This document shows, piece after piece, positions 1 to 29,012 of a stretch of 64,000 nucleotides of DNA (position 1 is the first letter of the stretch; every line of letters starts with the position of its first letter). The stretch lies in NCBI RefSeq assembly GCF_965641715.1, contig NZ_OZ282453.1. One strand, 5' to 3'. A program made the translations under genes and the position numbers. A model generated the notes under the pieces. The model was not told the origin of the DNA. It saw only the letters and a list, made by a program, of their open reading frames with translations, and ran no database searches. This stretch comes from Escherichia coli. Its GTDB lineage: Bacteria > Pseudomonadota > Gammaproteobacteria > Enterobacterales > Enterobacteriaceae.

Positions 1-163
1 AGCCGAGATCATCCGCAGCATAGCCCAGTCGGGCACGCTCACGCGCTTCCCCCTTAAGGCGGGACAGAGCCAGTTCGCGCTTGCTGTTATTCAGTGCGGT
101 CTGCTGTTTATCATCCAGGGTTGCCTGTGGTAGCCGTAACGGTACATTCACCAGCCCCTGTCG

Positions 164-1990
164 CTATTGAAGTAATTCATTACCAAGCCCAAGAAGGCGA
201 TTAAACTCGGTATGCTGCCCATTCATGATCAACAGGGACTGATACGCTTTGTTTTGTTCCGCCGCCTGTTGACGGATCAACGCCACCCGTCGCTCCTCCA
301 GCCCGGCAAGCACATCCTGAATGGATTGCGCTTTACCCTGCATTTGAGTGAGGCGAGACTGTTCAACTGCCAGTTGATTTGTTGCTTCTGCAAGCCCTTC
401 TGTGACAGTTTTTACCGACGTCATGTGGTTAATCATAAAACCGTTATCGGTTGTCCAGCCCGGATTTGCCAGCACATACTGATAGCCAGCAATTTTTTCC
501 TGTAAGGATTTAATCTTACTTTTCTGCTCGTCAATTAACCTGTTCTGCTCCTTCAGTGCCTGTCGCGTCTTTTCCTCATTATCTGACGCTTCAGGAAGCG
601 ACATTGCCGACGTTTTCTGGCGAATTTCGTCGATTGTTGCGGCATACTGGCGTGCAGATTCTCTGGCCTGCTCCTGATTCTGATACATCGTGTACCAGGC
701 CGCAGCCCCCAGCATGACGAGTCCCGGCACACCACCAACCAGCCCCAGCGCGCCACTTAATAAACGACTCCCCACTGACGTAACATTATTCAGCGTTGTC
801 TGTGCCGCTGTTCTGGCCGCAATATTACGGGTAAGTGACGCCTGGGCAGCTGTCAGCTTCGCTTCTGCTGCGGCCTGCCTTTCGGTACCGCGAGCAGCAA
901 CAACCGCCTGTTGCGCACGATAAACCGCCGCACGCGCCCTGGCGGTTGCTATCTGTGTCCCCCGAAGTTGCACTTCAGCAAGAGCCACTTCGTTTCTGGC
1001 TGCAGTAATTAATCCGGCAGTTGCAGATCCAGCAGACGACGCCATATTGCCAAAATATCGGGCTACCCCGACGGCAACCAGAGCACCGGCAGCGGTTGCC
1101 ACGGTGTCAATATTGCCTGCAATACCATTCAGCACACCGGAGAGCGTCTTCGTCACTCCGCTTGCCTCGTTCGCACCACCGACCCAGGCCATAAAGGCGT
1201 TTTCAACTTTGGTTGCAGAGGATGAAACCGTATCAGGCATTGCCGCATATTCATCACGTAATGCCCCAAGCTGACTAATCAGTGCAGGAACAACCTTATC
1301 GGCGGTCAACTTTCCGTTATCCGCCATGGCCTTCAGATCCTTACGGGCAACCCCCATTCCCGCAGCCAGCGCACGAATAACACGATCGCCGTTCTCATTC
1401 ACCGAGTTAAACTCTTCACCGCGCAGCACTCCCTGCGCCAGTGCCTGACTGAACTGCGTGATCACCGAACTGGCTTCTGCTGTACTGGCACCGGATAATT
1501 TCAGGCCCGTGGAGATCGCCTCGGTGACTTTCAGTACCTCCTCAGAACTGTAACCATACTCCCGCATGGAAGCTGCAGAACGGGCAAAAAGGCTGGCGTT
1601 ATCAGAAAACGCCGTCCCCGTTCTCTGGCTGATCGCCATTAATTCACGCTGTGATGCCTGAAAATCATCACTGGACTGTGAGGCCTGCTTCAGACGGGCA
1701 TTTACTGAATTCCACTCATCGGCGAGAGAAATAAGATGACCGGTAGCAAAAGCCCCGGCAAATGCCCCCGCCATATTCAGTGCCGAAGATTTAGCTGTAT
1801 TTATCTGATCCGTCACTTCTGCCAGTGCACGCCGCATTTCACGGGATGCAGCAGCGGACTGCCGGCCCCCGTTCTGCATGGTACGGTAGTAATCCTGCCC
1901 CATACGCGAAGCCCGGGAGATCTCTGACTGGAATGACCGGGAATTTGCCGAGATTTTAATAATCAGTTCACGTAGTGTCGCCACACTCAT
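164..1990 (-). CDS. Tail tape measure protein
   Basis: Long Ala/Gln-rich protein directly downstream of G/T chaperone pair; internal ATG (MSVATLREL) preceded by GGAG; ORF track extends to 2110. Confidence 0.7.
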   Translation of the reverse strand: MSVATLRELIIKISANSRSFQSEISRASRMGQDYYRTMQNGGRQSAAASREMRRALAEVTDQINTAKSSALNMAGAFAGAFATGHLISLADEWNSVNARLKQASQSSDDFQASQRELMAISQRTGTAFSDNASLFARSAASMREYGYSSEEVLKVTEAISTGLKLSGASTAEASSVITQFSQALAQGVLRGEEFNSVNENGDRVIRALAAGMGVARKDLKAMADNGKLTADKVVPALISQLGALRDEYAAMPDTVSSSATKVENAFMAWVGGANEASGVTKTLSGVLNGIAGNIDTVATAAGALVAVGVARYFGNMASSAGSATAGLITAARNEVALAEVQLRGTQIATARARAAVYRAQQAVVAARGTERQAAAEAKLTAAQASLTRNIAARTAAQTTLNNVTSVGSRLLSGALGLVGGVPGLVMLGAAAWYTMYQNQEQARESARQYAATIDEIRQKTSAMSLPEASDNEEKTRQALKEQNRLIDEQKSKIKSLQEKIAGYQYVLANPGWTTDNGFMINHMTSVKTVTEGLAEATNQLAVEQSRLTQMQGKAQSIQDVLAGLEERRVALIRQQAAEQNKAYQSLLIMNGQHTEFNRLLGLGNELLQ

Positions 1991-2031
1991 TCTCCGGACG
2001 AAAAAAAAACCGCCGAAGCGGTTATATTGAC

Positions 2032-2322
2032 TCACTGAGACACTATTAAAAGCGCGTTTTCCAGTCCGGCAAATGGATCTGATACGCCTTCTGTCTGCTC
2101 TTGTCCCCACTGAAGAAGCGCATCATTCAGTGGTACTTTGACACCCTGTGCACCGTAAACCGCAGAAACTATCTGGGCAGCCCGGATATCAGCCCGCTCG
2201 TCACCCAGCGGGCTGAACCTGTCAAATTCTGCCCACATCATGATTTCTGATGCGGACATTTCCCTGCGTAACTCTGACAATGTGCGCCCCATCCTGAGCG
2301 CCAGCATCATCAGAAAACGCAT
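2032..2322 (-). CDS. Tail assembly chaperone, T-frame segment (made as G-T fusion by -1 frameshift)
   Basis: ORF in -1 frame relative to upstream G-like ORF, immediately after slippery site. Confidence 0.6.
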   Translation of the reverse strand: MRFLMMLALRMGRTLSELRREMSASEIMMWAEFDRFSPLGDERADIRAAQIVSAVYGAQGVKVPLNDALLQWGQEQTEGVSDPFAGLENALLIVSQ

Positions 2323-2333
2323 CCCCGGAAGCG

Positions 2334-2720
2334 CTACTTTTTTTTAACCTCGCCGGCATCACTGATCAGTTCCAGAGACTGCCGAAGAAGCCGCGCATGC
2401 ACCGGGCCATACACGGCAATCACCTGTTCACGATCATCCTCTGAAAATACAGGTTGCAGTCCGGTATCACACAGAACATCAATGAACAGTTCAACATCTG
2501 CCTCCAGATTTCGGCGGGCGCGCTCCGCTACGGATAACGGTGTCTCATCATCTTTTGCTTTAACGATCTCCTGCCAGCGCAACCAGGCTTCTGCAGAAGG
2601 TTCCCGTAACACAACCGTTGCTCCCTCCCATTCAGGCACATCAACGGTTTTATGGCGAAACCCCGACATCGTTGCCAGTGCCAGATTACGGATATTTTTA
2701 GTCATCACATCTATCCTCAT
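2334..2720 (-). CDS. Tail assembly chaperone, G-like
   Basis: Position between major tail and tape measure genes; ends ..GEVKKK-stop on A AAA AAG. Confidence 0.6.
   Translation of the reverse strand: MRIDVMTKNIRNLALATMSGFRHKTVDVPEWEGATVVLREPSAEAWLRWQEIVKAKDDETPLSVAERARRNLEADVELFIDVLCDTGLQPVFSEDDREQVIAVYGPVHARLLRQSLELISDAGEVKKK
2337..2345 (-). promoter_or_regulatory. Programmed -1 ribosomal frameshift site (A AAA AAG)
   Basis: mRNA reads gtt aaa aaa aag tag; -1 frame continues VALPGMRFLMM.. into the T ORF. Confidence 0.6.
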
Positions 2721-3424
2721 TAACTGACGGTAACAGTGCAGGAAGTGGAGGTCACCTTGTTAACAGGGCTTGCTGAATCAGAAATCTCGCAGGTATATGC
2801 ACCCGCATCACCGGATACTGCGGATGCCTTACTGAACGTTGCCGCCGTCTGTCCGGAAACAGGAGAACCACCTTTTTTCCAGGCATAAGAATAAGGCGGC
2901 ACACCACCCGCAGCCTCAACCGCCATTTCAAGTTTCGCTCCGGCAGAAATCTGCAGCGTGCTGTTTAAATCGACCTTCACTTTTAGCGGCTCTGTCGTCA
3001 GCACAGGTTTACCTTTCAGACGCAGGGAAAACGTTGCAGCCACAACACCATTGGTTCCTGCAGACCAAGTATGCTGACGCACCTCTGCCATAAAGGTAAA
3101 TCCGTTGCCTGACGGAAAAATAACTTTAAAGCCATACGTGGTGTCATTGTCATAGGCACTACGCAACGCGTTCTGGGCAGCATTGAGGTAAAAGTTGCCT
3201 GACATGGAAATCTCTGACGCGGCACCAAGACCGTTAATATTTTCCTGCTCAACAGAACACAGCGTGGTGACATCAATATCCTGCTTTTGTCCTGCGGTAA
3301 ACTGCACTTCTTTGATTGTACAGCTCAGCCCAAGAAAGCTGGCAGAATCCAGGGTTTCTGCTGTTACCGGTGCAGACGAAATCATAATTTTCGTCAGTTG
3401 CGAACGCTCAAAATTAGAGGACAT
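2720..3424 (-). CDS. Major tail protein with C-terminal Ig-like domain
   Basis: Lambda gpV-like position upstream of G/T; C-terminal Big_2-like segment (..VPPYSYAWKKGG..YTCEISD..). Confidence 0.7.
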   Translation of the reverse strand: MSSNFERSQLTKIMISSAPVTAETLDSASFLGLSCTIKEVQFTAGQKQDIDVTTLCSVEQENINGLGAASEISMSGNFYLNAAQNALRSAYDNDTTYGFKVIFPSGNGFTFMAEVRQHTWSAGTNGVVAATFSLRLKGKPVLTTEPLKVKVDLNSTLQISAGAKLEMAVEAAGGVPPYSYAWKKGGSPVSGQTAATFSKASAVSGDAGAYTCEISDSASPVNKVTSTSCTVTVS

Positions 3425-3485
3425 ACTCGTCTCCTGAAAATAAAAAAGCCCGCCAGCGGCGGGGGGGGTAAAATCATTAACGACC

Positions 3486-3830
3486 TCAGGCTATTACCTG
3501 AAATTCAAGCGTGGCTCTGCTCAGACGGGAATCAGGATCATAACCCTGCGTTTTAGAAATAACGGAGGGTGCCAGTTGCCTTACCGCATCAAGTGCCTGC
3601 TCACGGATATCATCTGCGTCATCAGGTACTGTTGCCCAGACATCGATCTGCACGGTAATTCTGGATTCAGCCTGACCATCAAGCACATCAGACGCAGTGT
3701 CAGAGACCACAGAAAATACCAGCCATGGCGGAGATACCGCAGGCTTTCCCTCCGTCAGCGGGACCACATAAGGATAAACCTGTCCTCCGGCCAGTTTAGA
3801 CAGCAGGGAATACAGTGTGGTCTCTCTCAT
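3486..3830 (-). CDS. Tail terminator/completion-like protein
   Basis: 114 aa ORF between head-tail joining genes and major tail gene. Confidence 0.4.
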   Translation of the reverse strand: MRETTLYSLLSKLAGGQVYPYVVPLTEGKPAVSPPWLVFSVVSDTASDVLDGQAESRITVQIDVWATVPDDADDIREQALDAVRQLAPSVISKTQGYDPDSRLSRATLEFQVIA

Positions 3831-4276
3831 TTGCTTAAGACCTCATCAATAGCCTGATTCATTCGCTGTATGGCAACCTGCGCCGCCAGTTCTTCTGTCG
3901 TATCAAACGCCGGACGAATGAACGGGTGAGCAGGCATGTTTACCGTTCCCAGTTCGACAAAGCGCCAGTAAAACGCATTTCGGGGATCGCTGGCTTTCAT
4001 GCTGTTATCACTGTTTCCGGTTCGCAGATTTCGTCCACGAATGTGGACACCCGAGATAATTTCCCCCCGACGTTTTGATCGCTGAGTGAGAACAACCACA
4101 TTTTTCTTCAGTTTTCCGGTTCGCTCCGGCGCTCGCTCAACAACCGCATCCCGCATAGCTTCAGCACCGGCACGGGTGGCATCGCGCAGTACCTTATTGT
4201 TTTCTGCCCTGCTGAGCGTCTCCAGATCCCGTGCAATATCCGCCAGACCTGAAAAATCAAGACTGAAATCCATCAC
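3827..4276 (-). CDS. HK97 gp10-like tail component
   Basis: Position and family-like sequence (..GKLKKNVVV..AHPFIRPAFD..). Confidence 0.5.
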   Translation of the reverse strand: MMDFSLDFSGLADIARDLETLSRAENNKVLRDATRAGAEAMRDAVVERAPERTGKLKKNVVVLTQRSKRRGEIISGVHIRGRNLRTGNSDNSMKASDPRNAFYWRFVELGTVNMPAHPFIRPAFDTTEELAAQVAIQRMNQAIDEVLSK

Positions 4277-4611
4277 ACATTCCCCTTCTGAGAACAGAGT
4301 ATCTCAAGCCGGGTAGCACGAGCATCCGGTATCGGCGGACCGTCTATACTCAGAATCGCGCCTTTGAATGCACCAGTCAGCACTTTCAGACATGAAGTTG
4401 CTGTCACATCTCGCCGGAATCTCATCCAGACCCTCACTGTAGCCTGAGCAGTTTCTGCACCTCCGGATATTCTCTCCCTGCCACTGATCCCCTTAACTTC
4501 TGCCCATATGGTTGCCCCCTCCGTCATTGTTTCCACAGGGTGCCCTGACGGAGACCGAACGGTGGTGGCATTCAGAATAACCACACGATCACGTAATCTT
4601 CCTGCCTGCAT
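4273..4611 (-). CDS. Head-tail adaptor / head closure protein
   Basis: 112 aa, overlapping stop/start with neighbours, downstream of connector. Confidence 0.5.
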   Translation of the reverse strand: MQAGRLRDRVVILNATTVRSPSGHPVETMTEGATIWAEVKGISGRERISGGAETAQATVRVWMRFRRDVTATSCLKVLTGAFKGAILSIDGPPIPDARATRLEILCSQKGNV

Positions 4612-4619
4612 GAATCCCC

Positions 4620-4925
4620 CTATGTTCCGGGATGAAACCGATACATCCGCAGTCCGGTGTAGAAAAAATCAGGCACTGCATCCTGCATTTCCCTGTTCTC
4701 GTACCAGTAGCCAACCAGTTGCATAAGACGCAGCTTTATCAGCGGTGTTATTACAAGCCCGGTCGTATCCTGCTCAGAAACAGTTTCATCGTAAAGCGTC
4801 CGGTTTAAAAACTTTTCAGCCTCTTCCCTGGCAGCAGCCAGATACATCATAAGAAGAGCATTCTCCTGTTCATTGTCATCATCAATCCGGCACTGAACAC
4901 GAAGCTCTTCCAGAGTGGGCATCAT
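4620..4925 (-). CDS. gp6-like head-tail connector protein
   Basis: N-terminal TLEELRVQCRIDDD motif typical of gp6-like connectors. Confidence 0.6.
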   Translation of the reverse strand: MMPTLEELRVQCRIDDDNEQENALLMMYLAAAREEAEKFLNRTLYDETVSEQDTTGLVITPLIKLRLMQLVGYWYENREMQDAVPDFFYTGLRMYRFHPGT

Positions 4926-17464: not shown

Positions 17465-19588
17465 TTAATCTTCTGCCTCAGGCTGGAACATCAGCACGTA
17501 AAAAACATGCTGCTTCCCCCCAATTTTGCCGAGCGCCTTTTTCTTGTAACGGCGATCGTTACCCGCTTCCAGCATTCCGGCAGCACTCAACGCGCGGGCA
17601 AAGTGAGACGGATTAAATCCCTGTGCTATCTCACCCTCAAATACATGCGGGAACGTGTAAAAACGGAACTCGTCATCTTCGTTTCTGATACTCCCCTTTC
17701 TGTATCCGGCAAGTTCTTTAATCGATAAATCACGCTCGTCGGTATTGGGCCACGGAAGGTATCTGCTGAATCCGAACGACGCTAAAAAAGCTTCTGCCTG
17801 TTCAACCATCTGTTTAAATTCCCTGTTACCCGTGCCGAACTCCTTCACCCAGGCATTAAAATTATGCTGTATGGCATCGCGGCATTCCTGCTCATCCCAG
17901 CCAGTAACATGACCTGAAAGCACAAGCGCGGCCTCCAGTATGGCAAATCGCTCCCCCACACGGTGAACCTGTTCGCCGTAGCTCTCCGGTATCAGGTTGC
18001 GCCACCGCTCACGGCATGTCCTTACCGTGTCCTTTGCCTCCTGCTGGTGTTCTGCCAGCCATTTAACCCACTCACGACCCGCCGCCCCGTGATTTTCTGT
18101 CCAGGCATCCTTTAACGCGTCTGCGTGCGCCTTTCCGGTGCTGTATTCGTGAAATTGCGTGGCTTTTTCCATCGGAACGTTAAGCAGGCGGACAAGCTGC
18201 CCCGCTTTGACTTTTATCCCCTCCGTTTTGAGGAATGTCTCAACGTCCATTTCTCCGGTGCTGATTGCCACCGTGCGCCAGTGTTTGATCTCCCTGTTGC
18301 CGCCGTCCTTCGCCCCCTGTAATTTCCCCGAACCGTTAAACAGCGTATAGGCTGACGTGGACACCTCCCGCGCGTTTCCGGCCTGGCCTATTTCATCCAG
18401 GGGTAAAAGCCCGTCATTGTGTGCCTCTGCTTCGTTGGCGATACCTAACGCTGTGCCGTACCAGGTCAGCCGCTGCGCGTCCGGCTCTCCCCATAAACTT
18501 GATGCGATGTTCTGTGTGGTGGTTTTCCCTGCCGATGACTGTTCGAAAAGATGTACCCCGAAGCCGTCAGCGCCCACCAGCCCGATTAATGGTGCGGATA
18601 ACGATACCGCCACACCCAGCATCATGGACGGATTACCACCAGCCAGCCGCGCAACGGTATCGCGCCAGCCCTCCGCCGTTCCTGCCACGGAATAGCCATT
18701 AACAGCAGCCGTTTTTCCGGTAAACAGGACTGGCTTTTCGCAATCACCAATGACCGAACCGTCCGGCATGATGTACGCGCCAAAATGCCAGCCCGTTGTT
18801 GTGCTTAACTGCCATTCCTCATGGCTTCCGCTTAACTGCATCCAGTCAGCCAGGATAGCCCTGTATTTACCGTTGGTTGTTACGTTCAGTCCGTGGTCTT
18901 TCAGCAACCGCCAGCCGTCACGGTCGCCAATGCCACCGCACGGAACCGCCATTGTGATGACTTCATGGTTTGCTAATTTTTTCCAGCGCATCACGCGGTA
19001 ATGCTCTTTACCGATTGTCCCCGTTCCCAGTAGTTCAAGCGGGGAACATAACCACGTCTCAGGCCGGATAATTTCGCCTGACTGCTTATCCACTTTTGGC
19101 GTTACCCAGAAAACACCATCGGCGCGACTTTCAACGCGGGGCTTTAATTCATCATCGCCCTGGATTTCTGTGATTTTTTTCTTTAAGGGCAACACCAGAC
19201 TTTCCCCGCGCTCGTATTCGTCTTTGAGGCGAGGCAACTGGTCGGATAAATCCGCCGGGCTGATGTCAGTTATCCCCGCGTATTCGTATACGGTCTTCAC
19301 GCCAGCCACAGCCAGCAACGTGACGATCTGTGTAAGGCTACGTTCAGTGATGTGCCCTGCGCGGTAAACACGCACACACTGACGGCTATCATCAATAATT
19401 TGATAACCGGTAATATCTTTCAGGTGTTCATCTGACAGAACGACAGGCGGCACATTGTCGGCGGCAATATGCTTACCTGCCCATTCCTGCCACTCTTTCG
19501 CATGGCTCCACGCATCACTACCCGCAAAGATGATAACCTCCGTCATTTTGTCGGCTGGCTGGTGCTTTAAGTTTGGTGCGCGCTTCAT
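17465..19588 (-). CDS. Primase/helicase-type replication protein
   Basis: 707 aa with Walker A (SSAGKTT), P4-alpha/PICI pri-rep-like position next to iterons. Confidence 0.65.
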   Translation of the reverse strand: MKRAPNLKHQPADKMTEVIIFAGSDAWSHAKEWQEWAGKHIAADNVPPVVLSDEHLKDITGYQIIDDSRQCVRVYRAGHITERSLTQIVTLLAVAGVKTVYEYAGITDISPADLSDQLPRLKDEYERGESLVLPLKKKITEIQGDDELKPRVESRADGVFWVTPKVDKQSGEIIRPETWLCSPLELLGTGTIGKEHYRVMRWKKLANHEVITMAVPCGGIGDRDGWRLLKDHGLNVTTNGKYRAILADWMQLSGSHEEWQLSTTTGWHFGAYIMPDGSVIGDCEKPVLFTGKTAAVNGYSVAGTAEGWRDTVARLAGGNPSMMLGVAVSLSAPLIGLVGADGFGVHLFEQSSAGKTTTQNIASSLWGEPDAQRLTWYGTALGIANEAEAHNDGLLPLDEIGQAGNAREVSTSAYTLFNGSGKLQGAKDGGNREIKHWRTVAISTGEMDVETFLKTEGIKVKAGQLVRLLNVPMEKATQFHEYSTGKAHADALKDAWTENHGAAGREWVKWLAEHQQEAKDTVRTCRERWRNLIPESYGEQVHRVGERFAILEAALVLSGHVTGWDEQECRDAIQHNFNAWVKEFGTGNREFKQMVEQAEAFLASFGFSRYLPWPNTDERDLSIKELAGYRKGSIRNEDDEFRFYTFPHVFEGEIAQGFNPSHFARALSAAGMLEAGNDRRYKKKALGKIGGKQHVFYVLMFQPEAED

Positions 19589-19899
19589 TTTGCCTTTCCC
19601 CGTTCACGAATAATTTCACGTACTGCCTTAATGCGTTCCATTCCTGTAACGCGCATGATTCTGTCGATGTCGCTTAATTCTGCTGGTGGTGCTTTACTTA
19701 CCAAGGTGAACTCCCTGTCAAAGCGCATATGTGACGACACGCAGGGATGCGCATAACCTTCGCGGATATAGGTCACACGAAAATCATCGACGGTTTTGAT
19801 CGTTATCGTGCTGCCGTATTTATCCTGGAAAATATCGCCGGGGCGGATTTCAGGCCGAGCGGGGCCGCTGGCAGTAAAGCCAGAATTTTTCTTTTTCAT
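19585..19899 (-). CDS. Hypothetical protein
   Basis: 104 aa, 4-nt overlap with primase gene. Confidence 0.4.
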   Translation of the reverse strand: MKKKNSGFTASGPARPEIRPGDIFQDKYGSTITIKTVDDFRVTYIREGYAHPCVSSHMRFDREFTLVSKAPPAELSDIDRIMRVTGMERIKAVREIIRERGKAK

Positions 19900-28858: not shown

Positions 28859-28935
28859 TGGTCCGCCACCGAGGACTCGAACCTCGCACCATCAACTTAG
28901 AAGGTTGATGCTCTATCCCGATGAGCTAGTGGCGG
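28859..28935 (-). tRNA. tRNA-Arg (anticodon UCU)
   Basis: Cloverleaf with acceptor CCGCCAC/GTGGCGG, anticodon loop CTTCTAA, TTCGAGT T-loop, encoded CCA. Confidence 0.8.
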
Positions 28936-28936
28936 T

Positions 28937-29012
28937 TGGTGGCCCTTGCTGGATTTGAACCAGCGACCTGGCGATTATGAGTCGCTCGCTCTCACCACTG
29001 AGCTAAAGGGCC
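28937..29012 (-). tRNA. tRNA-Ile2 (anticodon CAU, ileX/ileZ-like)
   Basis: GGCCCTTTAGCTCAGTGG..CTCATAA..GGTTCAAATCC..CCA, near-identical to E. coli ileX as recalled. Confidence 0.8.

What the first reader, a model, noticed from the sequence alone, without database searches (positions are those of the whole stretch)
2032..2720. Conserved G/G-T tail-chaperone -1 frameshift with an A AAA AAG slippery heptamer
The G-like ORF ends gtt aaa aaa aag tag. Shifting -1 on the A-run reads VALPGMRFLMM.. and continues through ORF 2032..2322 to give a G-T fusion, as in lambda and most long-tailed phages. This confirms the tail module is organised for expression.
Basis: partly seen in the sequence, partly recalled or inferred. 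Interest (0 to 1): 0.3.

Follow-up and report, generated by a model that had tools for sequence, protein, structure and literature searches.

The report
Phage tail-chaperone G/GT frameshift site
This is the well-known programmed -1 frameshift that lets long-tailed phages make a short tail-assembly chaperone and a rarer extended form from one gene pair, here in an HK97-like E. coli prophage; it is real but ordinary.

Summary
On the minus strand, a 123-aa chaperone gene (2334..2705) ends GTT AAA AAA AAG TAG. The -1 frame has a TAA at 2344..2346, so it opens inside the A8 run. It then stays open for 101 codons to TGA 2032..2034.

The two parts match Pfam Phage_TAC_1 (2.8e-58) and Minor tail protein T (4e-19). 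The fused 224-aa product matches a profile of fused tail proteins end to end (5.5e-93). The G part is about 64% identical to HK97 gp13 (PDB 2OB9). The HK97 record annotates gp14 as a -1 frameshift product.

In 12 divergent phages and 77 of 78 IMG/VR relatives, T lies in the -1 frame. A AAA AAG, G GGA AAG or G GAA AAG sits at the same aligned lysine codon. A homologous cassette ending A_AAA_AAG_TAG gave 7% frameshifting in E. coli (Antonov 2013).

I found no conserved stimulatory RNA structure. Transcriptional slippage on the A8 run would give the same protein and cannot be excluded as a contributor.

One caveat concerns "organised for expression". The tape-measure gene just downstream carries a private in-frame amber codon (164..166). 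Tail assembly from this copy may therefore be defective.

The parts
2334..2705 (-). G-type tail assembly chaperone gene (HK97 gp13 homologue), 123 aa plus TAG. The maximal ORF extends to ATG 2720.
   Evidence: PF06222 Phage_TAC_1 at 2.8e-58, covering 1-124 of 124 profile positions. phrog_344 tail assembly chaperone. PDB 2OB9, which is HK97 gp13, at 4.7e-49. RefSeq relatives annotate 'phage tail assembly chaperone' with a 372-nt CDS.
2337..2343 (-). Slippery heptamer A AAA AAG in zero-frame phase (the last two Lys codons of G).
   Evidence: It falls in the same alignment column as A AAA AAG, G GGA AAG or G GAA AAG in relatives.
2338..2345 (-). A8 homopolymer run containing the slip site. It is invariant in length in 82 close relatives.
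   Evidence: 82 of 82 loci have A8 followed by GTAG.
2334..2336 (-). Zero-frame stop TAG directly 3' of the heptamer. It terminates G.
   Evidence: The same heptamer-plus-stop arrangement recurs in several divergent relatives.
2344..2346 (-). TAA in the -1 frame. It limits the zero/-1 overlap to 7 nt.
2032..2337 (-). T extension read in the -1 frame (101 codons, VALPGMRFLMM...IVSQ, plus TGA 2032..2034). With G it gives a 224-aa GT fusion, join(2705..2337, 2337..2032).
   Evidence: PF06223 Phage_tail_T at 4.2e-19. phrog_337 at 1e-39. The fused product matches phrog_14766 over residues 6-225 against profile positions 1-220 of 224, at 5.5e-93. The HK97 frameshift product has the same length, 224 aa.
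2720..3424 (-). Context: major tail (tube) protein gene with a C-terminal Ig-like domain, immediately upstream of G.
   Evidence: phrog_158 major tail protein at 1e-108. Pfam Ig_2, Phage_TTP_11 and Phage_tail_2 also match.
1..1990 (-). Context: tape-measure protein gene immediately downstream of T. It is cut by the window edge and carries an in-frame amber at 164..166.
   Evidence: PF20155 TMP_3 and PF06120 Phage_HK97_TLTM. phrog_339 at 1e-259. TAG here versus CAG in L001.
1999..2023 (-). Context: terminator-like hairpin (AACCGCTTCGGCGGTT) plus a T9 tail, between the T stop and the tape-measure start.
   Evidence: The HK97 record annotates putative terminators in the same module.

Best explanation
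This is the G/GT recoding site of an HK97-like E. coli prophage tail module.

Shown from the sequence: most ribosomes translating the chaperone gene would read GTT AAA AAA AAG and stop at TAG, giving the 123-aa G protein. A -1 shift anywhere in the A run continues into the T frame and gives one defined 224-aa product, ...GEVKKK-VALPGMRFLMM....

Inferred mechanism: a small fraction of ribosomes, probably a few percent, slip back one base. The two lysyl-tRNAs re-pair from AAA-AAG to AAA-AAA on the heptamer A AAA AAG.

Inferred function, by homology with lambda and HK97: G and the G part of GT coat the tape-measure protein. The T domain recruits the major tail protein so that the tube polymerises to the correct length. 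Neither protein stays in the virion. The fixed low GT:G ratio is the purpose of the frameshift.

Inferred stimulator: the TAG placed directly after the heptamer may help by slowing A-site decoding. No conserved RNA structure or Shine-Dalgarno stimulator is evident.
For: Sequence anatomy.

Position: the pair lies between the major tail protein and tape-measure genes.

Homology: G matches PF06222 (195.7 bits against a cutoff of 25) and T matches PF06223 (69.2 against 25.9). The fused product matches phrog_14766 continuously through the junction at 5.5e-93. G matches PDB 2OB9 at 4.7e-49, and 2OB9 is HK97 gp13.

Annotation precedent: the HK97, HK446 and Bcep176 records annotate the homologous pair as a joined CDS. 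The HK97 record says 'translated due to a -1 frameshift'.

Conservation: T is in the -1 frame in all 12 divergent relatives and in 77 of 78 analysable IMG/VR relatives. The slippery motif sits at the same aligned column. Site types among the 78 loci were A AAA AAG 18, G GGA AAG 13 and G GAA AAG 45. A conserved peptide, P-[GDE]-x-x-F-[LM]-M, is encoded in the -1 frame upstream of the first ATG of T. This holds even in Burkholderia phages, where that stretch lies inside the G ORF. All 82 near-identical copies keep A8-GTAG.

Experiment in homologues: Antonov et al. 2013 (PMC3711429, Suppl. [quoted passage not shown] It is identical to the Stx2 phage 1717 sequence in L083 and gave 7 +/- 0.79% frameshifting in E. 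coli. An HK542-like G_GGA_AAG cassette gave 6%.

Function of G and GT, and the 30:1 ratio in lambda: Atkins et al. 2016 review (PMC5009743).
Against: Nothing was measured for this exact sequence.

No conserved downstream stimulatory structure was found. The predicted hairpin starts 15 nt after the heptamer with z = -2.0. In 10 relatives it pairs no better than shuffled controls, 56.8% against 56.4%. Rfam gave no frameshift-element match.

The GAGG upstream is only 4 nt from the heptamer, whereas dnaX has a spacing of about 10 nt, and it is not conserved.

An A8 run could also support RNA polymerase slippage, which yields the same protein. The share due to ribosomes is therefore not established.

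RefSeq (PGAP) and most phage records annotate G and T as two separate CDS.
Confidence: 0.85

Rival explanations
1. The GT fusion is made mainly by transcriptional slippage. RNA polymerase would add one extra A while copying the T8/A8 tract. A fraction of mRNAs would then carry A9 and encode GT in one continuous frame (GTT AAA AAA AAA GTA GCG...). The protein is identical to the ribosomal frameshift product.
For: The run here is A8, longer than the 6 A's the heptamer needs, and its length is invariant in 82 close relatives. Antonov et al. state that A runs with n > 7 have been implicated in programmed transcriptional realignment. They also report that efficiency rises with run length: 10% for 7 A's, 40% for 9 and 63% for 11. 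A Halomonas relative has A9 at the same site.
Against: Efficient slippage by bacterial RNA polymerase is documented for runs of 9 A's or T's (PMC5009743); 8 is borderline. Most family members have only A6 or A7, or use G GGA AAG or G GAA AAG, which cannot support polymerase slippage. Yet they keep the same -1 arrangement. The A6 cassette A_AAA_AAG_TAG already gives 7%.
Confidence: 0.1
2. G and T are two separate proteins. T would be translated on its own by initiation or termination-reinitiation at ATG 2322, 2310 or 2307, as RefSeq annotates. The A run next to the G stop would then be incidental.
For: PGAP and many phage records list separate 'tail assembly chaperone' and 'tail assembly protein T / DUF4035' CDS. 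An ATG at the start of the T domain is invariant in 10 divergent relatives. In Burkholderia and Serratia relatives the G stop overlaps that ATG as TGATG or ATGA, a typical coupling arrangement.
Against: No usable Shine-Dalgarno sequence precedes the ATGs. GGGG abuts ATG 2322 and lies 11 to 14 nt from the others. The -1 frame encodes a conserved P-G-x-x-F-L-M motif upstream of that ATG in all relatives. The -1 frame is open back to an aligned slippery motif in every analysable relative. Fused profiles and annotated joined CDS exist. Frameshift fusion products were observed experimentally for two family members. In lambda, it is the T region of the gpGT fusion that binds the major tail protein.
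Confidence: 0.04
3. The arrangement is a decayed gene: a once-continuous GT gene broken by a 1-nt deletion in a mutable homopolymer (A9 to A8) in a defective prophage.
For: Homopolymers are indel hot spots. This prophage copy does carry a nonsense mutation in the tape-measure gene. It also shows homopolymer length differences from its nearest relative elsewhere.
Against: All 82 near-identical copies, including sequenced phages such as phi467 and Evi, have A8. Every divergent relative has the same split with T in the -1 frame.
Confidence: 0.01

Closest known systems
Phage HK97 gp13 / gp14 (tail assembly chaperone and its -1 frameshift extension; PDB 2OB9 for gp13)
   Same: The protein families are the same (PF06222 plus PF06223). 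The G part is about 64% identical. The gene order is the same: major tail protein, G, T, tape measure. The fused length is the same, 224 aa. T is in the -1 frame and the slip occurs at the same aligned Lys codon.
   Different: HK97 has CGG GAA AAG at the site, and its G continues 5 more codons to TAA. Here the site is a canonical A AAA AAG within an A8 run, and the stop follows immediately. HK97 also has a moron gene (gp15) between T and the tape-measure gene, which is absent here.
Phage_TAC cassette of E. coli O157 / Stx-phage prophages tested by Antonov et al. 2013 (A_AAA_AAG_TAG, 7% frameshifting)
   Same: It is a homologous G/T pair (G 68% identical) with the same heptamer, the same immediately following TAG, and a similar downstream sequence.
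   Different: The run there is A6 (AGA AAA AAG), not A8. In the Stx2-1717 copy the T ORF is shorter (80 codons past the G stop). This exact sequence was not tested.
Phage lambda G / GT (Levin, Hendrix & Casjens 1993; Xu, Hendrix & Duda 2004, 2013, 2014)
   Same: The genomic position, the logic (low-level -1 frameshift near the end of G) and the presumed function are the same. The T half here matches the Pfam family named 'Minor tail protein T', PF06223.
   Different: Lambda uses G GGA AAG. The G half here matched only PF06222 (Phage_TAC_1) in the Pfam scan, with no second chaperone family reported. The 30:1 ratio was measured only for lambda.
E. coli dnaX gamma/tau frameshift cassette
   Same: The slippery heptamer A AAA AAG is identical, and it is decoded by the same shift-prone tRNA-Lys.
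   Different: dnaX has an upstream Shine-Dalgarno stimulator and a downstream hairpin and reaches about 50%. Neither stimulator is conserved here. In dnaX the shift truncates the product rather than extending it.

Membership tests
G/GT-type tail assembly chaperone frameshift of long-tailed dsDNA phages (Xu, Hendrix & Duda 2004) | Two ORFs located between the major tail protein gene and the tape-measure gene | tested here: met
   The order is major tail protein 2720..3424, G 2334..2705, T 2032..2337, tape measure ..1990, all on the minus strand.
G/GT-type tail assembly chaperone frameshift of long-tailed dsDNA phages (Xu, Hendrix & Duda 2004) | The second ORF is in the -1 frame, overlaps the end of the first, and has no stop between the slip site and its end | tested here: met
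   The overlap is 7 nt and the -1 frame is open for 101 codons.
G/GT-type tail assembly chaperone frameshift of long-tailed dsDNA phages (Xu, Hendrix & Duda 2004) | A slippery sequence in the correct phase within the overlap | tested here: met
   A AAA AAG at 2337..2343, in phase with zero-frame codons AAA AAG.
G/GT-type tail assembly chaperone frameshift of long-tailed dsDNA phages (Xu, Hendrix & Duda 2004) | The arrangement is conserved among homologues despite sequence divergence | tested here: met
   12 of 12 divergent phages and 77 of 78 analysable IMG/VR loci have T in the -1 frame, with an aligned shift-prone motif.
G/GT-type tail assembly chaperone frameshift of long-tailed dsDNA phages (Xu, Hendrix & Duda 2004) | A GT fusion protein is actually produced at a low ratio to G and is needed for tail assembly | not testable with these tools
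   Only precedent is available: 7% and 6% in reporter cassettes from homologues, and the 30:1 ratio and function shown for lambda.
HK97 gp13/gp14 protein families (Pfam PF06222 Phage_TAC_1 plus PF06223 Phage_tail_T) | The G part scores above the PF06222 gathering threshold | tested here: met
   195.7 bits against a cutoff of 25, with full-length profile coverage. PDB 2OB9 (HK97 gp13) matches at 4.7e-49.
HK97 gp13/gp14 protein families (Pfam PF06222 Phage_TAC_1 plus PF06223 Phage_tail_T) | The -1-frame part scores above the PF06223 gathering threshold | tested here: met
   69.2 bits against a cutoff of 25.9.
dnaX-type stimulated -1 frameshift cassette | A Shine-Dalgarno-like stimulator about 10 nt upstream of the heptamer | tested here: not met
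   The only match is GAGG 4 nt upstream, and it is not conserved in relatives.
dnaX-type stimulated -1 frameshift cassette | A conserved stem-loop or pseudoknot a few nt downstream of the heptamer | tested here: not met
   The predicted hairpin begins 15 nt downstream with z = -2.0. There is no covariation, and pairing equals shuffled controls in 10 relatives. Rfam gave no match.
Programmed transcriptional slippage sites | A homopolymeric A or T run long enough for RNA polymerase realignment (efficient at 9 or more; n > 7 implicated) | tested here: inconclusive
   The run is A8, at the lower edge of the reported range. No transcript data are available.

The most novel reading that the evidence does not exclude
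In this prophage clade the slip site has expanded from the A6 heptamer to a fixed A8 run bounded by a -1-frame TAA and a zero-frame TAG. GT might therefore be made by two routes that converge on one protein: ribosomal -1 slippage and RNA-polymerase insertion of an A. This could set a higher GT:G ratio than the roughly 4-7% seen for lambda and the A6 cassette, and tract length would act as an evolutionary tuning knob for the ratio.
Probability: 0.2. Interest if true: 0.25.

Novelty: already known. Interest (0 to 1): 0.08.

Why it matters
The main value is for annotation. RefSeq and most phage records list G and T of this very common E. coli prophage as two independent genes (902 of 5426 complete genomes carry it). 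The 224-aa GT fusion is therefore missing from protein sets. Biologically it adds nothing new to the established G/GT paradigm. The only mildly open point is how much the A8 run adds through transcriptional slippage. The private amber codon in the neighbouring tape-measure gene matters more for whether this particular prophage can still build tails.

Tried and rejected
- NCBIfam gave no hit for G, T or GT. This is uninformative, because Pfam and PHROGs matched strongly.
- The first IMG/VR scan with the G protein returned only 100%-identical copies. It served only for the run-length census. I repeated the scan with a diverse GT alignment headed by a Serratia sequence.
- I looked for a downstream stimulatory hairpin. 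One is predicted (-33 kcal/mol, z = -2.0). It starts 15 nt after the heptamer, lies in sequence coding for the conserved LALRMGRTL motif, and shows no covariation. I rejected it as an established stimulator.
- I considered the upstream GAGG as a dnaX-like Shine-Dalgarno stimulator. I rejected it because the spacing is wrong and it is not conserved.
- An Rfam scan of 1900..3600 gave only sub-threshold chance hits: rsmX, isrK and a snoRNA.
- The pattern-only significance test shows that the heptamer and open -1 frames are too common in the window to be evidence on their own.
- I checked whether the window's own genome is in the E. coli collection, to see its annotation. No exact match was found around the amber codon.

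Full report
**1. Observation**

All genes in this part of the window are on the minus strand. The ORF 2334..2720 ends ...GGC GAG GTT AAA AAA AAG TAG.
- The A8 run is at 2338..2345.
- The canonical heptamer A AAA AAG is at 2337..2343, in phase with the zero-frame codons AAA AAG.
- The TAG is at 2334..2336.

Reading from the G of AAG in the -1 frame gives VALPGMRFLMMLALRMGRTL...IVSQ.

The -1 frame has a TAA at 2344..2346. The two frames therefore overlap by only 7 nt, and any slip within the run yields the same product...GEVKKK|VALPG....

The true start of G is probably ATG 2705 (123 aa) rather than 2720. Supporting evidence:
- GAGGA lies 8 nt upstream of 2705.
- The Pfam match starts at residue 6 of the long ORF.
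- RefSeq relatives use a 372-nt CDS.
- Homologue N-termini align there.

**2. Is the pattern more than chance?**

Not on pattern alone.
- AAAAAAG occurs 28 times in the window, against 17 +/- 3.8 expected.
- 46 of 156 long stop-to-stop ORFs have a -1 frame open for at least 60 codons past their stop.
- Several of those carry some in-phase XXXYYYZ.

The case rests on homology and conservation.

**3. What it is**

The G part matches Pfam PF06222 Phage_TAC_1 over the full profile (2.8e-58). The -1-frame part matches PF06223 'Minor tail protein T' (4.2e-19).

In PHROGs the fused 229-aa translation matches phrog_14766, a 224-position 'tail protein' profile. The match is continuous, residues 6-225 against profile positions 1-220, at 5.5e-93. 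This is the direct test of the fused frame.

The flanking genes are a major tail protein with a C-terminal Ig domain (2720..3424) and a tape-measure protein (..1990).

G matches PDB 2OB9 at 4.7e-49, and 2OB9 is identical to HK97 gp13. The HK97 record annotates the homologous pair as gp13 plus a joined CDS 'translated due to a -1 frameshift'. The HK446 and Bcep176 records do likewise.

The region is an HK97-like prophage of E. coli.
- Matches at 95-99% identity occur in about 900 of 5426 complete genomes.
- It is also present in sequenced phages such as phi467 and Evi.
- It is integrated next to the host mfd / lolCDE / ndh region.

RefSeq (PGAP) annotates G and T as separate CDS, without slippage.

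**4. Conservation**

In 12 divergent relatives, T is always in the -1 frame relative to G. These span Escherichia, Salmonella, Klebsiella, Serratia, Halomonas and Burkholderia phages, with G identity from 69% down to 29%.

A nucleotide alignment places a shift-prone motif ending in AAAG in one column.

Fusing each pair at that column gives proteins that align through the junction. They share a conserved P-[GDE]-x-x-F-[LM]-M motif encoded in the -1 frame upstream of the first ATG of T. This holds even where that stretch lies inside the G ORF, as in the Burkholderia phages. It argues strongly against independent initiation of T.

A broader census of 80 IMG/VR loci, retrieved with a diverse GT alignment, gave 78 analysable loci.
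- 77 of the 78 have T in the -1 frame.
- Site types: A AAA AAG 18, G GGA AAG 13, HK97-type G GAA AAG 45.

All 82 near-identical copies keep exactly A8 followed by GTAG.

**5. Experimental precedent**

Antonov et al. 2013 (PMC3711429) tested two members of their 'Phage_TAC' cluster in an E. coli GST-MBP reporter.
[quoted passage not shown] It is identical to the Stx2 phage 1717 sequence I fetched as L083.
- An HK542-like G_GGA_AAG cassette gave 6 +/- 0.61%.

The first cassette has the same heptamer-plus-TAG design as the window.

The role of G and GT comes from lambda, as reviewed by Atkins et al. 2016 (PMC5009743).
- G coats the tape measure.
- The T domain recruits the major tail protein.
- The molar ratio is 30:1.
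- Neither product is in the virion.

**6. Mechanism and open points**

The most likely mechanism is tandem -1 slippage of the two lysyl-tRNAs on A AAA AAG. It is probably aided by the adjacent stop codon (inference). The heptamer-plus-stop arrangement recurs in several independent junction types.

I found no conserved stimulator.
- The predicted downstream hairpin shows no covariation: 56.8% paired against 56.4% in shuffles.
- The upstream GAGG is too close and is not conserved.
- Rfam has no match.

Because the run is A8, RNA polymerase slippage that adds one A would give the same protein. Runs with n > 7 have been implicated, and runs of 9 are efficient. Most relatives use A6 or A7, or non-homopolymeric sites. 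The family-level mechanism is therefore ribosomal. A transcriptional contribution in this clade cannot be excluded without transcript data.

**7. Caveat on 'organised for expression'**

The tape-measure gene immediately downstream has an in-frame TAG at 164..166, where a 99.8%-identical prophage has CAG.
- The frame stays open beyond the TAG to the window edge.
- None of the 976 E. coli genomes with this region contains the exact 91-mer; the best hits have one mismatch.

This copy may be tail-defective, or the base call may be wrong.

**8. Verdict**

The finding is a real, correctly read example of a long-known recoding event, in the HK97 gp13/gp14 family.
- Novelty: already known.
- Interest: low.
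- Practical value: correcting the annotation (a missing 224-aa GT product) and flagging the tape-measure amber.

Noticed in passing
window 164..166 (minus strand), within the tape-measure gene 1..1990: There is an in-frame amber codon after 608 codons of the tape-measure gene (CAA TAG CGA). The 99.8%-identical prophage in strain PEC422 has CAG (Gln) and an intact 1075-aa protein. No E. coli complete genome in the collection has the exact 91-mer. This is either a private nonsense mutation, which probably makes the tail module defective, or a sequencing error. A Gln-inserting amber suppressor would restore the wild-type protein.
   Followed up: partly
window 19594..19600 (minus strand): A second in-phase slippery heptamer lies at a gene junction in the same prophage. 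A roughly 104-codon ORF (ATG 19899) ends CGG GGA AAG GCA AAA TGA. The -1 frame is that of the downstream 707-aa DUF927 ORF (17465..19588), whose ATG overlaps the stop as ATGA. About one such case per window is expected by chance, so ordinary translational coupling is more likely.
   Followed up: no
window 1999..2023 and 3449..3470 (minus strand): Terminator-like GC hairpins with T tails flank the tail tube/chaperone block: one after the tail-terminator gene and one between T and the tape-measure gene. The HK97 record annotates putative terminators in its corresponding module. Both sites differ from the nearest relative by one base of homopolymer length (T9 vs T8, G8 vs G7).
   Followed up: partly
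L001 (RefSeq NZ_CM168005.1) 4132..4805; also L083, L084, L086, L087, L094: RefSeq/PGAP and most phage records annotate G and T as two independent CDS ('phage tail assembly protein T' or 'DUF4035'), with no ribosomal-slippage join. The GT fusion is therefore absent from their protein sets. Only the HK97, HK446 and Bcep176 records carry the joined CDS.
   Followed up: yes
L087, L091, L092, L093 (Serratia and Burkholderia phages), G stop / T start: An ATG at the start of the T domain is invariant across 10 divergent relatives. In these phages the G stop overlaps it as TGATG or ATGA, although the aligned A AAA AAG lies 24-33 nt upstream. This raises the possibility that some relatives also make free T by translational coupling.
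   Followed up: partly
L099 (IMGVR_UViG_2808606809_000008): This is the one relative out of 78 where the G and T motifs fall in the same frame and the G stop comes early. The junction is Klebsiella-like and appears to carry an indel. It is probably a mutated or mis-assembled copy.
   Followed up: no
window 28859..29012 (minus strand): Two adjacent tRNA genes, tRNA-Arg(tct) and tRNA-Met(cat), lie inside the prophage region. Neither is a suppressor that could read the amber codons noted above.
   Followed up: no
window 2720..3424 (minus strand): The major tail protein carries a C-terminal Ig-like domain (Pfam Ig_2 / Ig_3; PHROG 'Hoc-like' matches). The domain is fused in frame. RefSeq names the whole protein only 'immunoglobulin domain-containing protein'.
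   Followed up: partly
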